Positions 47,701 through 64,000 of a DNA stretch of 64,000 bases are shown one piece after another; within the stretch, counting starts at the first letter, position 1; the number at the start of each line of letters is the position of its first letter. The position numbers are program-made. Source of the DNA: Anas platyrhynchos (lineage: Eukaryota); NCBI RefSeq assembly GCF_047663525.1, contig NC_092619.1, forward strand, positions 4,693,441 through 4,757,440. The letters run 5' to 3'.

Positions 47701-50700
47701 CGAGATGACCAGTGCCTAAAGAAAAGAGGCACTCTCCTTTCAAGGCAGACTGATCGGCACAAAAAATTTTATCTGTTCTCAAGCACAAGCAACTCTAAGA
47801 TAAATGGGTTCAAGGATCTTCAATGTGAAGAGTGAATATCAAAGCTGTGGTGTAAATGCCTGAAGTAACTAGGAAAATAAAACTAACATTCACACTTTTA
47901 AGGAAAAGGTACAGCACTGAAGAGGCTTTCAGGGTAGGGCATAACTGCATTATCTGAGCATTCCCTAGGCTCCCAACCTTAGATGCTATCGCGCTGGGGA
48001 AACTTGGTGTGCTAGCTCTAAGGAACACCACGGAGCGTAGAGTGGAGTGGAGACACCACGGCTAGGCTCTGTAATCAGGTGGGGCCTCGATTGTTCTTGT
48101 GCACAAAGCTGCACTTTTTGCCACCCTAAGCCAAAGACCTGTCATGTTTTGACAAATGCTGTACCCTAGTGTACTTTTTGCTCATTATAATATCATTATA
48201 ATACCAAAACACACCTCCATCCCAAAAGCTACCCGCCTCCAAGGTGCGACCACCCCTCACTGAGCATGCGCTCTGAATTTCTCGGAGCCTATTACTTTAA
48301 ACGGAGACGGGAAAACTTTACACCAATCCTAACTAAGATATGCTTGACTAGAGCCACTCAAGCTCCACCTAAAAGATAGAAAATAATATAAATTGGCCCA
48401 AGAGAGAGGGGATGTTAGGGAAGATACCATCGTCAGGGGAGATACCATCCCGAGGACACACAACATCCTTAGGACCTCCTGACTCCTGGGATCAGTCGAC
48501 GGGCTGAGCCTCTCTTCCCCCCCCATTGGGATGCCTTTGGGTGAGATCTGAATACTTGCTTATAAATCTCTATAGAGTCTTTGATCCTTTTAACGCGTTT
48601 ATTTCTAGGCTGCGCACCTGTAACACCTGTAACACCTGTAACACCTGTAACACCTATAACACCTATAACACCTATAACACCTATAACATCTATAACATCT
48701 GTAACACCTACAACACCAATAACACCTGTAACATCTGTAACACCTATAACACCTGTGTATTTCATGCATACTAGCTTGCTTTTGCAGATAGTCACTATCA
48801 CCGGCAATCCAAAAGAACCTGATTATCTGTTGCTGTAATAAACCATACTTGATTGCATTGTGATAGCTCTCATTAATGCAACTAGGGTGAGGGTGGTTAT
48901 CCGTGATAGTTCAGTGTTGTGAATCTAACCAGACCCCCAGACGGTTAATGCATTTTTGGTGAATGTCTGAACGGACCCCCAGGTGGATATTACGTTTTTG
49001 GTGAATGTCCGAACGGACCCCCAGACCGTTAATGCGTTTTTGGTGAATGTCTGACTGGACCCCCAGGCGGTTAATGTGTTTTTGGTGAAAGTCCGATTGG
49101 TTCAGTACTCTGAATCCTACCTGGCCCGTAACGGTTAATCAGCTACACCCCTTTAACACGACATTCTCCCAATTTGGCCAGGGATTTATTTAGAGTTGTT
49201 GGGAAAGAGCGAATAAGGAGGTTACAGTTGCATGTGGGACTGTGAAAATGCTCCCCTGGGGAGTTCAGTTGTACCCAAAGCCTTCCTTTGGGGGCACTTT
49301 TGGATGGGCAAAAGGGTCTTGGAGCGCGTTTTCTGTGGCCCGAGTTTTCAGTCGTCTCCGATGCCGGCTAGGGATATGTTTAGGGTTGTTCGGAAACAGC
49401 GAACACGGATCGTCCAGCTGCATGTGGGGCTGCATAAAGGCTCCCCTTGGGAGTTCAGATGTACCCAAAGCCTTTCTTTGGGGGCACGTTTGCATGGGCA
49501 AAAGGGGCTCTGATCGCGTTTTCTGGGTCCCCAGTTTTCAGTCGTCTCCGGTGCCGGCTTGGGTTATCTTTAGGTTTGCTAGGAAACAGCGAACCCGGAG
49601 GGTCCAGTTCCATGTGGGGCTGCAAAAAGGCTCCCCTGGGGTGTTCACTTGTACCCAAAGCCTTCCTCTGGGGGCACTTTTGTATGGGCGTAAGGGGCTC
49701 GGAATTCGTTTTCTGGGGCCTGAATTTTCAGTCGTCTTCGTTGCCGGCTAGGGTTATATTTAGGGTTGCTCGGAATCAGTGTACTCAGAAGGTCCAGTTG
49801 CATGTGGGGCTGCGTAAAGGCTCCCCTGGGGAGTTCACTTGTACCCAAAGCCTTCCTTTGGGGGCACTTTTGGATGGGCGAAAGGGGCTCAGAATTCGTT
49901 TTCTGGGGCCCCCTTTTTCAGTCTTCTCCCATTGCGGCTAGGGATATATTTATGTTAGCGGTGAAAGAGTGAACCCGGAGGGTCCAGTTGCACGTGGGGC
50001 TGCATAAAGGCTCCCATGGGGAGTTCAGATGTACCCAAAGCCTTCCTTTGGGGGCACTTTTGGATGGGCGTAAGGGGCTCAGAACGCGTTTTCTGGGGCC
50101 CGAATTTTCAGTCGTCTGCCATGCAAGCCAGGGCTGTATTTAGGCTTGCTGTGAAAGAGCGAATATGGAGGGTCCAGTTGCTTGTTGGGCTCCGTAAAGG
50201 CTCCCCTGGGGTGTTCACTTGTACCCAAAGCCTTTTTTTGGGGGCACGTTTGCATGGGCAAAAGGGGCTCGGAACGCGTTTTCTGGGTCCCGAGTTTTCA
50301 GTCGTCTCCGATGCCGGCTAGGGCTATGTATAGGGTTGCTCGGAGAGAGTGAACCCGGAGGGTCCAGTTGCATGTGGGGCTCCATAAAGGCTCTCCTAGG
50401 GAGTTCAGTTGTACCCAAAGCCTTCCTTTGGGGGCACTTTTGGATCGTCCAAAGGGACTCGCAATGTGTTATCTTGGGCCCGCTTTTTCAGTCTTCTCCC
50501 ATGCCGGCTAGGGCTATATATAGACTTGAGGTGAAAGAGTGAACCCGTAGGGTACAGTTGCATGTGGGGCTGTGTAAAGGCTCCCCTGGGGAGTTCAGTT
50601 ATACCCAAAGCCTTCTTTTCGGGTCACATTTGGATAGGCGAACGGGTCTTGTAAGATATTTTCTTTGACCCGATTTTTCAGTCGTCTCCGATGCCGGCTA

Positions 50701-62700: not shown

Positions 62701-64000
62701 AAGGCTTTGGGTACATCTGAACTCCCCAGGGGAGCCTTTACGCAGACCCATGTTATAAATGGCTCAGGATTCAAATTAGGATTAAATAAAAAAATAGGAT
62801 TTATTAGAAGAATATAAAGGAATAGAGGTAAGCAAACAGCGCTGGGTGCACCGGGAGTCTCCGCTCCACCAGGACGCACGCCAGTTACATCAAGCAGCTG
62901 ATTTTTATGCACCTAGACTAATACATATTCATTACTACTTCTAAAAAAGTAGATTATTATAATTAGCTTCCGGGGTCCAGTTCCTCCTACTGGAGCATGC
63001 GCATCAGTCTCCTCTGGGGGTCTCTAGGGGTCTTTCATGCTGAAGGCTCGTAGTCTTCCTCTCACCCTTTGTACTTACTCGGCACTGTTCCAAGTTTATG
63101 GAACACTCTCTGTACACTCTCCGCATGTCTTGTCTCCCAACCGTCCTTCAGCTTCTTTTTTCTTCCTCTTAATCTCTTGGCCCACCCTGGCCAGATACCA
63201 AGGATCCACATAGTCTCTCATAACAGTCACCAGCAGTCACCAGTTATCAGTTGTTCTGAAACTCCCAAACAGCTTGACGACTCATGAGCAATTAAAACAT
63301 TCTTTCCCAGCGATTTACAGTCATCTATATAACATCTATAGCAGTGTTAAATCAATCTCGAAGAAGACAGAAAAAAACTGTAACTGTTAGAAATAGAAGT
63401 CCGGAATAACAAAAGCAAACAGGTTCATAAATTTAAGGAGTGTTTTCTGAAGACTTGATAAATTGACTGGAATGAGGGGGAGACTGGGACACACTACATC
63501 TGTGGTTCAAGAATTAAATTGCCAGTGCAGGGCCCAGAGGCAGACAGGATTCAAACAGAATCATTCTTTATGGACACAAATTTATGGACACGAATAGGAA
63601 TTGTTAAAATATTCCTCACACCCACATGCAGCTGGATCCTCCGTGTTCGCTCTTTCACAGCAACCCTTAAGATAGCCCTAGCTGACATGGGAGACGACTA
63701 AAAAATTGGGCCCCAGAAATCGCGTTACAAGCCCCTTTCACCCATCCAAAAGTGCCCCAAAAGGAAGGTTTTGGGTACAACTGAACTCCCCACGGGAGCC
63801 TTTTTGCAGCCCCACATGCAGCTGGACCCTCCGCGTTCGCTCTTTCAAAGCAACACTATATATAGCATAGGCCGGCATCGGGAGGACTGAAAAATTGGGC
63901 CCCAGAAGACGCATTTTTAGACCCTTTCGCCCATCCAAAAGTGCCCCCAAAGGAAGGCTTTGGGTACAACTGAACTCCCCAGGAGAGACTTTACGCAGCC

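What the first reader, a model, noticed from the sequence alone, without database searches (positions are those of the whole stretch)
49165..64000. Large array of a 190-bp satellite with nested higher-order repeats
At least 13 kb (continuing past the window end) consists of a 190-bp monomer. Blocks offset by 1135 bp (6 monomers) and by 2468 bp (13 monomers) are nearly identical. For example the translated stretches at 54923..55849 and 56058..56606 share ~140 identical residues, and 56683..56910 and 59055..59378 are near-identical. This indicates recent homogenisation typical of centromeric or pericentromeric satellites. I cannot match the monomer to a named avian satellite from memory; it could be an uncharacterised centromere-associated repeat.
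Basis: seen in the sequence. Interest (0 to 1): 0.6.

Follow-up and report, generated by a model that had tools for sequence, protein, structure and literature searches.

The report
Known duck 190-bp centromeric satellite array
The last 14.8 kb of the window is a real tandem array of a 190-bp repeat, but it is almost certainly the already described duck centromeric satellite (APL-HaeIII/RBMII), and its "higher-order" signal is an irregular patchwork of short recent duplications, not a regular higher-order repeat.

Summary
From 49177 to the window end there are about 75 copies of a 190-bp monomer (TRF scores 2902 and 13479; nhmmer E-values 1e-27 to 1e-48). The near-identical blocks at offsets 1135 and 2468 bp are real.

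It is not a regular higher-order repeat (HOR). Mean monomer identity is nearly flat against lag, at 0.80-0.86. Near-identical blocks are only 2-4 monomers long and occur at about 20 different lags.

- The array changes orientation at about 51558, through a 35-nt quasi-palindrome that is 97% complementary.
- An 870-bp solo LTR interrupts the array at 62751-63620.
- There are two subfamilies. A diverged type A lies on both sides. Type B lies in the middle, carries an EcoRI site, and holds all the recent duplications.
- Short conserved dyads lie in the monomer core.

The window comes from a mallard-type duck. A CR1 ORF is 278/280 identical to Anas platyrhynchos XP_071886484.1. One full monomer translated inside a duck UniProt gene model matches consensus A at 53/63 residues.

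Length, HaeIII periodicity, rare BamHI sites, GC content and monomer divergence all fit APL-HaeIII/RBMII, which FISH places at duck centromeres (PMC6435179). I could not make a direct nucleotide comparison with the deposited clones.

Verdict: ordinary and already known.

The parts
49177..51557 (+). 12.5 monomers of the 190-bp satellite in + orientation (m01-m12 plus a partial one). They belong to subfamily A, are diverged, and have no near-identical partner.
   Evidence: nhmmer hits. TRF period 190, 12.5 copies. Best partner identity is at most 0.874. Within-A identity is 0.816.
51509..51614 (.). Orientation-switch junction. It is a quasi-palindrome with 35-nt arms (51509-51543 and 51580-51614) that are 97% complementary, separated by a 36-nt spacer. 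Its centre falls at monomer positions about 103-110, at the CCCAAAG/CTTTGGG dyad. A roughly 50-bp deletion of monomer sequence follows at 51614/51622.
   Evidence: Inverted repeat I3. nhmmer model coordinates are 2-103 on + and 110-55 on -. Sequence read directly. GC-skew sign flips there.
51559..61479 (-). About 52 monomers in - orientation (m13-m64), subfamily B. It has 20 diagnostic differences from A, including an EcoRI site in 38 of 52 monomers. It holds every recent duplication in the array.
   Evidence: B-B identity is 0.832 and A-B is 0.76. 36 of 52 B monomers have a partner at 92% or more, against 0 of 19 A monomers.
52379..61289 (-). Zone of patchwork duplications, 94-97% identical and 300-774 bp long. 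Examples: 54799-55409/55934-56544 (lag 6), 56435-57208/58903-59676 (lag 13), 58315-58994/60402-61081 (lag 11), 55448-56053/58673-59278 (lag 17), 53070-53659/56288-56877 (lag 17). The monomer-type string reads like a rearranged unit of about 11 monomers.
   Evidence: Ungapped offset scan. Monomer identity matrix and clustering. Shuffle control.
61480..62750 (-). 6.7 monomers in - orientation (m65-m70 plus a partial one) of subfamily A. They are as similar to the + block m01-m12 (0.814) as that block is to itself.
62751..63620 (.). Solo LTR (TGTT...CACA, 870 bp) inserted into a monomer. The flanking duplication is CCCA or ACCCA, and removing the element restores the monomer. It is not part of the satellite, but it dates this flank as stable.
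   Evidence: Sequence read. nhmmer model positions overlap across the gap. Two further copies lie at 38997-39821 (88.8%, with a clean 5-bp target duplication ATTCC) and 18298-19093 (74%).
63621..64000 (-). The array resumes with 2 monomers of subfamily A and is cut by the window end.
   Evidence: nhmmer hits 63614-63682, 63686-63866 and 63875-64000. TRF.

Best explanation
This is one edge of an array of the anatid 190-bp satellite known as APL-HaeIII (the RBMII family). It lies next to gene- and transposon-bearing DNA on a small chromosome of a mallard-type duck.

The DNA is non-coding. According to published FISH, the family makes up the centromeric heterochromatin of almost all duck chromosomes. 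The 190-bp unit is about one nucleosome repeat.

Within the window the array is layered:
- Old, diverged monomers (subfamily A, about 82% alike, with no close partners and a retained LTR insertion) lie on both sides.
- A central block (subfamily B) has recently been reshuffled by out-of-register unequal exchange or gene conversion. This copied runs of 2-4 monomers to irregular distances.

One short fold-back or template-switch event, at a dyad-symmetric site in the monomer, set the left flank in inverted orientation. CpG positions decay about twice as fast as other positions, as expected for methylated heterochromatin.

What is shown: the anatomy, the host, and the presence of the same monomer in the duck genome. 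What is inferred: identity with the deposited APL-HaeIII/RBMII clones, centromeric location, and the exchange and fold-back mechanisms.
For: Array and monomer.

Host:
- The CR1 ORF at 2300-4885(-) matches Anas zonorhyncha and A. platyrhynchos proteins best (92-95%). Anser brachyrhynchus scores 85-86% and other birds 70-80%.
- XP_071886484.1 [Anas platyrhynchos] is 278/280 identical to window 4031-4870, while other Anas CR1 copies are about 93%. Its contig is 6.52 Mb.
- The flanking DDX19/25-like exon is closest to an Anser brachyrhynchus protein, and the match includes intron read-through.

Same satellite in duck:
- UniProt A0A8B9TGH3_ANAPL begins with translated satellite. Its first 63 residues, one whole monomer, match the consensus A translation at 53/63.
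- Tandem 190-mers that are 88-93% identical to consensus A occur on two ENA metagenome contigs.

Fit to published APL-HaeIII (PMC6435179), published value first and this array second:
- Monomer length: 190 bp; 190 bp here.
- GC content: 51.6%; 51.1% here.
- Identity between clones: 78-89%; 0.80-0.83 here.
- HaeIII ladder dominated by the monomer; 0.87 sites per monomer here, and 47 of 61 spacings equal one monomer.
- BamHI site poorly conserved; 2 sites here.
- MspI site present; 0.82 per monomer in subfamily A here.
- GenBank titles read 'RBMII DNA with inverted repeat'; two conserved dyads lie in the monomer core here.

Centromeric location of the family: FISH in PMC6435179, and use of the repeat as the centromere marker in duck assemblies (PMC7787181, PMC11745021).

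Layering and patchwork. Junction. LTR. CpG decay 2.1-2.3 times faster than other positions.
Against: - I made no nucleotide-level comparison with the deposited clones (LC416791-LC416795, X61401-X61429). The held papers give them only as images.
- The published TaqI ladder is not reproduced here. TaqI sites occur in only 0.10 of monomers.
- Only 14.8 kb is visible, whereas duck centromeric arrays average 443 kb (PMC7787181). The window alone cannot show that this block belongs to the functional centromere.
- Copies of the family also occur inside duck and goose mRNA models (S1 Table), so non-centromeric blocks exist.
- No CENP-A data exist for duck in the papers read.
Confidence: 0.8

Rival explanations
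1. It is a small interstitial or pericentromeric 'relic' block of the same satellite family, outside the functional centromere. On this reading it is a decaying side array rather than the edge of the kinetochore-bearing array.
For: - The monomers are strongly diverged, about 82% alike.
- A retroelement LTR has been retained inside the array.
- Transposons and a gene fragment lie within 40 kb.
- Only 14.8 kb is visible.
- Members of the family are found inside annotated mRNAs elsewhere in duck and goose and at the 5' end of a duck WNT1 model.
Against: - The array runs off the window end, so its size is unknown.
- Its central block shows very recent exchange, with partners 95-100% identical.
- Duck microchromosomes are reported to be acrocentric, with APL-HaeIII arrays close to genes (PMC7787181).
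Confidence: 0.25
2. It is a true regular HOR array with nested 6-mer and 13-mer units, as in primate alpha satellite.
For: - Blocks at lags 6 and 13 are 96-97% identical.
- Monomer types recur in a partly conserved order (D-H-I-E-J-A...), with lag 11 seen three times in a row at m38, m49 and m60.
Against: - Mean identity by lag is flat at 0.80-0.86.
- High-identity pairs occupy 20 different lags, and no block exceeds 774 bp.
- 16 of 52 B monomers and all 19 A monomers have no partner at 92% or more.
Confidence: 0.05
3. It is a different, so far undescribed 190-bp duck satellite that merely shares length and composition with APL-HaeIII.
For: - No direct sequence comparison with the deposited clones was possible.
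- The TaqI periodicity reported for APL-HaeIII is absent here.
Against: - Two unrelated 190-bp satellites in one species, both with one HaeIII site per unit, 51% GC, about 80-85% monomer identity, a weak BamHI site and internal inverted repeats, would be a large coincidence.
- The assembly papers find centromeres by this one 190-bp repeat.
Confidence: 0.1
4. The orientation switch and part of the duplication patchwork are assembly artefacts of a hard-to-assemble satellite.
For: Satellite arrays are prone to collapse and mis-joins. The junction is palindromic, as fold-back read chimeras are.
Against: - Only 35 nt of the arms are near-identical. Beyond that, the two sides are ordinary diverged monomers of different subfamilies. 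A chimeric fold-back read would not give that.
- Duplicated blocks differ by 3-6%, which is not the 0% expected of an artefactual duplication.
Confidence: 0.1

Closest known systems
APL-HaeIII satellite of Anas platyrhynchos (Uno et al. 2019, PMC6435179), a member of the RBMII tandem repeat family of Anatidae (GenBank X61401-X61429)
   Same: - 190-bp unit in tandem arrays.
- One HaeIII site per unit, an MspI site and a poorly conserved BamHI site.
- GC about 51%, and about 80-85% identity between units.
- Internal inverted repeats.
- The host genus is Anas.
- A monomer of the same sequence family is present in the annotated duck genome.
   Different: - TaqI sites are rare here, at 0.10 per monomer.
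- The array shows two local subfamilies, with an EcoRI site marking type B. The papers I read do not describe this.
- Nucleotide identity to the deposited clones was not measured.
AFA-HinfI-L (192 bp) of Anser fabalis, the goose relative of the same family (PMC6435179)
   Same: Similar unit length. Reported to be homologous to APL-HaeIII and RBMII, and centromeric.
   Different: It is restricted to microchromosomes in goose and carries the T-rich/A-rich CNM-type motif. The host here is nearer to Anas than to Anser: CR1 identity is 93-99% against 85-86%.
Primate alpha-satellite HOR arrays with flanking monomeric layers
   Same: Monomer size is about one nucleosome repeat. A more recently exchanged core is flanked by older diverged monomers. 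Transposons are retained in the flanks and orientation switches occur.
   Different: - There is no regular HOR period here.
- There is no sequence relationship.
- There is no CENP-B box: one 1-mismatch match against 6.5 expected by chance.
Chicken CNM / PO41 41-42-bp repeats (Galliformes microchromosome centromeres)
   Same: Both are avian centromere-associated tandem repeats. A 42-bp minisatellite lies just outside the array, at 48932-49096.
   Different: The 190-bp monomer has no internal periodicity of about 42 bp. It has no significant similarity to the neighbouring 42-bp unit: 164 of 500 shuffles score as well. I made no comparison with CNM sequences themselves.

Membership tests
APL-HaeIII / RBMII satellite (Anatidae) | Tandem head-to-tail monomer of about 190 bp | tested here: met
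   TRF period 190, or 189 in the last block. 71 full monomers of 188-191 bp.
APL-HaeIII / RBMII satellite (Anatidae) | One HaeIII site per unit, giving a ladder dominated by the monomer | tested here: met
   62 GGCC sites, 0.87 per monomer. 47 of 61 spacings equal one monomer.
APL-HaeIII / RBMII satellite (Anatidae) | MspI/HpaII site in the unit, and a poorly conserved BamHI site | tested here: met
   CCGG occurs 0.42 times per monomer overall and 0.82 in subfamily A. There are only 2 GGATCC sites in 71 monomers.
APL-HaeIII / RBMII satellite (Anatidae) | TaqI ladder dominated by the monomer (Southern blot in PMC6435179) | tested here: not met
   There are 7 TCGA sites, 0.10 per monomer, and none are spaced one monomer apart. 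This is a reported property of the genome-wide population, not a defining sequence feature, and this local array may be a variant.
APL-HaeIII / RBMII satellite (Anatidae) | GC about 51.6% and 78-89% identity between units | tested here: met
   GC is 51.1%. Mean pairwise identity is 0.80 overall and 0.81-0.83 within subfamilies.
APL-HaeIII / RBMII satellite (Anatidae) | The host is an anatid; APL-HaeIII itself comes from Anas platyrhynchos | tested here: met
   XP_071886484.1 [Anas platyrhynchos] is 278/280 identical to the window CR1 ORF. Other best hits are Anas at 92-95%, above Anser at 85-86%.
APL-HaeIII / RBMII satellite (Anatidae) | Nucleotide similarity to the deposited clones (LC416791-5, X61424 and others) | not testable with these tools
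   The sequences appear only as figure images, and the full-text k-mer search found nothing. Indirect evidence: a duck gene model (A0A8B9TGH3_ANAPL) translates one whole monomer with 53/63 residues identical to consensus A.
APL-HaeIII / RBMII satellite (Anatidae) | Centromeric location by FISH | not testable with these tools
   Known only from the literature: PMC6435179, PMC7787181 and PMC11745021.
Regular higher-order repeat array (alpha-satellite type) | A fixed period of n monomers, with copies at least about 95% identical along the array | tested here: not met
   The identity-by-lag profile is flat at 0.80-0.86. High-identity pairs occupy 20 different lags, and blocks are at most 774 bp.
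Regular higher-order repeat array (alpha-satellite type) | CENP-B box in monomers | tested here: not met
   TTCGNNNNANNCGGG gives 1 match with one mismatch, against 6.5 expected by chance.
CNM / PO41 41-42-bp repeat family | 41-42-bp unit, or internal periodicity of that length | tested here: not met
   No internal offset in the monomer exceeds what shuffles give. The adjacent 42-bp minisatellite is unrelated to the monomer.
Structured RNA family (Rfam) | Match to any Rfam covariance model at its gathering score | tested here: not met
   0 matches in 48000-64000.

The most novel reading that the evidence does not exclude
Subfamily B, the variant with the EcoRI site, may be a chromosome-specific, recently expanding core. 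On this reading it derives from a HOR of about 11 monomers that has since been rearranged. It would be flanked by older type A layers, with the left layer inverted by a hairpin-mediated fold-back at the conserved CCCAAAG/CTTTGGG dyad. That would be a first fine-scale 'layered centromere' picture for an anseriform microchromosome. It would also be a concrete case of a satellite dyad acting as a rearrangement hotspot.
Probability: 0.2. Interest if true: 0.35.

Novelty: already known. Interest (0 to 1): 0.15.

Why it matters
There is little new biology here. The satellite family, its host and its centromeric location are already published, and near-complete duck assemblies already annotate centromeres with it.

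The useful results are corrective:
- The repeat is not uncharacterised.
- The HOR claim does not survive a lag analysis.
- The array has features that matter for anyone using it as a centromere marker: two local subfamilies, an orientation switch, an LTR insertion, and CpG decay consistent with methylation.

The layered A/B/A arrangement and the junction at a dyad are modest leads for studying how bird centromeric arrays turn over.

Tried and rejected
- Full-text search for six conserved 19-20-mers of the monomer, both strands: no paper contains them.
- Supplements of PMC6435179: the sequence figures are images and the table lists only accessions. Searches for 'RBMII' and 'APL-HaeIII' found only the three papers already read.
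- BLASTN self-comparison of the array returned almost nothing because HSPs were culled. I replaced it with an ungapped offset scan and a monomer identity matrix.
- The raw ungapped offset profile drifts because 189-bp and 190-bp monomers are mixed, so I did not use it for the HOR verdict.
- Relation of the adjacent 42-bp minisatellite to the monomer, and internal periodicity of the monomer: neither is better than shuffles.
- Global single-strand DNA folding of the monomer is not exceptional, z -0.2 and -0.3. Only short local dyads are present.
- Rfam: no hit.
- Pfam on the 308-aa satellite ORF and on two other flanking ORFs (27082-28680(+) and 4927-5859(-)): no hit. The satellite ORFs are by-products of a repeat poor in stop codons.
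- CENP-B box: absent.
- Bacterial-type promoter/terminator scan: not meaningful for a bird genome. Its 'terminators' merely re-find the monomer dyad.
- The look-up of encoding contigs for the duck proteins P0007 and P0205: not on record, so I could fetch no duck-labelled DNA.
- The exon after the DDX19/25-like exon was not found in the window.
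Full report

Yes. Tandem Repeats Finder reports period-190 arrays at 49176-51543 (12.5 copies, score 2902), 51609-62750 (58.8 copies, score 13479) and 63621-64000 (2 copies, period 189), each about 82-83% matching. An nhmmer search of the whole window with the consensus gives 76 hits, with E-values down to 7e-48 and 1e-27 to 1e-48 for full-length monomers. All lie in 49177-64000 and none elsewhere. The last monomer is cut by the window end, so the array continues beyond it.

54799-55409 repeats at +1135 bp with 97.1% identity, and 56435-57208 repeats at +2468 bp with 96.4% identity.

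**2.

- *Orientation.* Monomers at 49177-51557 are in + orientation and everything from 51559 onward is in - orientation. The GC-skew sign flips there.
- *Junction.* It is a quasi-palindrome. The arms 51509-51543 and 51580-51614 are 35 nt long and 97% complementary, with a 36-nt spacer. In monomer coordinates the + side ends near position 103 and the - side starts near position 110. That is at the dyad CCCAAAG-CCTTC-CTTTGGG. Beyond the 35-nt arms the two sides are ordinary diverged monomers, which argues against a fold-back read chimera.
- *LTR insertion.* At 62751-63620 an 870-bp element (TGTT...CACA) splits a monomer. The flanks duplicate CCCA or ACCCA, and removing the element restores the monomer. 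Two more copies lie in the window, at 38997-39821 (88.8%, with a clean 5-bp target duplication ATTCC) and 18298-19093 (74%). It is therefore a solo LTR of a dispersed retroelement family.
- *Two subfamilies* (20 of 190 consensus positions differ).
  - Type A comprises m01-m12 (+) and m65-m71 (-).
  - Type B comprises m13-m64 (-). It carries GAATTC in 38 of 52 monomers, against 2 of 19 in A.
  - The left and right A blocks are as similar to each other (0.814) as each is internally (0.816 and 0.810). B-B identity is 0.832 and A-B is 0.76.
- *Consensus A:* GGCTAGGGATATATTTAGGGTTGCTGTGAAAGAGCGAACACGGAGGGTCCAGTTGCATGTGGGGCTGCATAAAGGCTCCCCTGGGGAGTTCAGTTGTACCCAAAGCCTTCCTTTGGGGGCACTTTTGGATGGGCGAAAGGGGCTCGGAACGCGTTTTCTGGGGCCCGATTTTTCAGTCGTCTCCGATGCC
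- *Consensus B:* GGGTAGGGCTATGTTTCGGGTTGCTCAGAAAGAGCGAAGACAGAGGGTCCAGTTGCATGTGGGGCTGCGTGAAGGCTCCCCTGGGGAGTTCAGTTGTACCCAAAGCCTTCCTTTGGGGGCACTTTTGGATGGGCGAAAGGGGCTTTGAACGCATTTTCTGGGGCCCTATTTTGAATTCCTCTCCCATTCC

**3. Higher-order repeat or not?**

I cut the array into 71 full monomers, aligned them and computed all pairwise identities.

- Mean identity against lag is nearly flat, at 0.80-0.84 over the whole minus block. Within B the extremes are 0.817 at lag 38 and 0.858 at lag 17. No lag is homogenised.
- Only 41 of 2485 pairs reach 92%. They fall on 20 different lags: 1, 2, 3, 4, 6, 10-14, 16, 17, 20, 22, 23, 26, 28, 30, 39 and 40. All lie within m17-m63.
- The pairs are not random. They form short diagonals, with 13 continuations against 1.2 expected and a maximum of 7 in 2000 shuffles. 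This corresponds to blocks of 300-774 bp at 94-97% identity.
- Writing monomer types as letters gives strings such as G-A-D-H-I-E / G-A-D-E-J-A-K-A / D-H-I-E-J-A-x-K-A-B-C / D-H-I-J. This looks like a unit of about 11 monomers broken up by deletions and out-of-register exchanges.
- 36 of 52 B monomers have a partner at 92% or more. None of the 19 A monomers does.

The 'nested HOR' description is therefore too strong. The right description is an irregular patchwork of recent multi-monomer duplications confined to the central subfamily.

**4. What the monomer looks like**

- It has no internal periodicity and no relation to the 42-bp minisatellite at 48932-49096.
- It matches no Rfam family. The long ORFs have no Pfam domain. 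There is no CENP-B box.
- Global single-strand folding is not better than shuffles, z about -0.2 to -0.3.
- Two short dyads sit in the best-conserved core. Columns 41-110 show 0.90-0.93 conservation, against 0.81-0.85 at the ends. CTCCCC-T-GGGGAG keeps 90% of its pairs and CCCAAAG-CCTTC-CTTTGGG keeps 82%.
- Consensus CpG positions differ from the consensus 2.1-2.3 times as often as other positions, mostly as TG or CA. This is the signature of methylated CpG decay.

**5. Whose genome is it?**

- The flank carries CR1 LINE ORFs and retroviral fragments typical of birds.
- The 861-aa CR1 ORF (2300-4885, -) is 92-95% identical to UniProt entries of Anas zonorhyncha and A. platyrhynchos. It is 85-86% identical to Anser brachyrhynchus and 70-80% to other birds.
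- One cluster member, XP_071886484.1 'uncharacterized protein [Anas platyrhynchos]', lies on a 6.52-Mb contig and is 278/280 identical to window 4031-4870. The other Anas copies are about 93%. This points to the same insertion locus in a mallard-type duck, on a microchromosome-sized sequence.
- A DDX19/25-like exon at 10158-10493 is closest to an Anser brachyrhynchus protein at 93%, and the match includes intron read-through.

**6. Is the satellite known?**

- Translating the satellite and searching the protein collection found UniProt A0A8B9TGH3_ANAPL. This is a duck 'Protein Wnt' model with a WNT1-type C-terminus. Its first roughly 125 residues are translated satellite.
- Its first 63 residues are one complete monomer. 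They match the consensus A translation at 53 of 63 positions and consensus B at 46 of 63. The same family therefore exists in the annotated duck genome.
- Two ENA metagenome contigs carry tandem 190-mers 88-93% identical to consensus A.
- Uno et al. 2019 (PMC6435179) describe the duck APL-HaeIII satellite. [quoted passage not shown]
- This array gives: 190 bp; 51.1% GC; 0.80-0.83 identity; 0.87 HaeIII sites per monomer, with 47 of 61 spacings equal to one unit; MspI in 82% of type A monomers; two BamHI sites.
- The GenBank titles 'RBMII DNA with inverted repeat' fit the dyads.
- One published property is not met. TaqI sites are rare here, at 0.10 per monomer.
- Duck assemblies use this 190-bp repeat to annotate centromeres. 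The mean array length is 443 kb and microchromosomes are mostly acrocentric (PMC7787181). APL-HaeIII is found at nearly all mallard centromeres (PMC11745021).
- I could not align the monomer to the deposited clones, because the library holds them only as images. Family membership therefore rests on strong but indirect evidence, and I put it at about 0.85-0.9.

**7. How it most likely works**

- *Shown:* a layered array with an old A layer, a recently exchanged B block and another A layer; an LTR fixed in the outer layer; a palindromic junction; and CpG decay.
- *Inferred:*
  - The array is one border of the centromeric or pericentromeric heterochromatin of a small duck chromosome.
  - B is kept partly homogeneous by out-of-register unequal crossing-over or gene conversion that moves 2-4 monomers at a time.
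  - The outer A monomers no longer take part in exchange and simply decay.
  - The inverted left flank arose by a short fold-back or template switch at the monomer dyad.
- Whether this block binds CENP-A cannot be told from sequence.

**8. Rivals**

- A relic block of the same family outside the functional centromere: about 0.25.
- A true regular HOR: about 0.05, refuted within the window.
- An unrelated new 190-bp satellite: about 0.1.
- Assembly artefact for the junction or the duplications: about 0.1.

**9. Verdict**

The repeat is real, but it is an ordinary member of a published satellite family in a well-studied species. The 'uncharacterised' and 'nested HOR' parts of the finding do not hold. 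Interest is low. The only mild leads are the A/B/A layering and the rearrangement junction at a dyad.

Noticed in passing
window 62751-63620, 38997-39821, 18298-19093: There are three copies of an LTR-like element of about 830-870 bp (TGTT...CACA). Copy 2 has a 5-bp target duplication (ATTCC). The copy in the satellite is a solo LTR. The copies are 74-89% alike, so the family is fairly old. I did not identify the ERV family.
   Followed up: partly
window 48615-48756 and 48932-49096: Two minisatellites lie directly outside the array: (CACCTATAA)n x15.6 and a 42-bp unit x3.9. The 42-bp unit has the CNM-like length but shows no significant similarity to the 190-bp monomer. I did not compare it with CNM or AFA-HinfI-S sequences.
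   Followed up: partly
window 2300-5859 (-): There is an apparently intact CR1 LINE with an 861-aa ORF2 and a 310-aa upstream ORF. ORF2 is 99.3% identical over 280 aa to Anas platyrhynchos XP_071886484.1. It could be a recently active CR1 copy, annotated as a gene in RefSeq.
   Followed up: partly
window 10158-10493 (+); also 689-1252: There is a DDX19/DDX25-like helicase exon. It is 83% identical to ORFs from other (unnamed) Logan, ENA and JGI contigs, and 93% identical to an Anser brachyrhynchus protein. In a contig from another sequencing sample (L004) the two matching segments lie about 1 kb apart. Here they lie about 9 kb apart, with a CR1 element and other long ORFs in between. The following Helicase_C exon was not found, so this may be a disrupted gene or a pseudogene.
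   Followed up: partly
window 22878-26258, 29946-30536, 32385-33711, 34736-35125: There are very long microsatellites: (GAGGT)n, (CTCAC)n, a perfect (CTTCC)37, and more than 3 kb of (AAG/AGAAGA)n. They are interleaved with CR1 and retroviral gag/pol fragments. The density of purine-rich repeats is unusual for 12 kb.
   Followed up: no
satellite monomers, 49177-62750: At non-CpG positions, differences from the subfamily consensus show transitions to transversions of about 1:2 (104:219 in A and 308:606 in B). That means no transition bias, which is unusual for neutral decay in birds. It could reflect fixed variant sites spread by conversion rather than independent mutations.
   Followed up: no
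UniProt A0A8B9TGH3_ANAPL (P0007); GenBank models listed in S1 Table of PMC6435179: Duck and goose gene models (WNT1, NWD1, OVCH2 and several ncRNAs) contain translated or transcribed copies of this satellite. These are probably annotation artefacts, and they contaminate protein databases with satellite-derived 'protein' sequence.
   Followed up: partly
window 1-2000 and 43500-44600: There are two GC-rich, CpG-island-like stretches (63% GC at 1-2000), with long overlapping ORFs on both strands. They are probably promoters or first exons of unidentified genes within 5-48 kb of the satellite.
   Followed up: no
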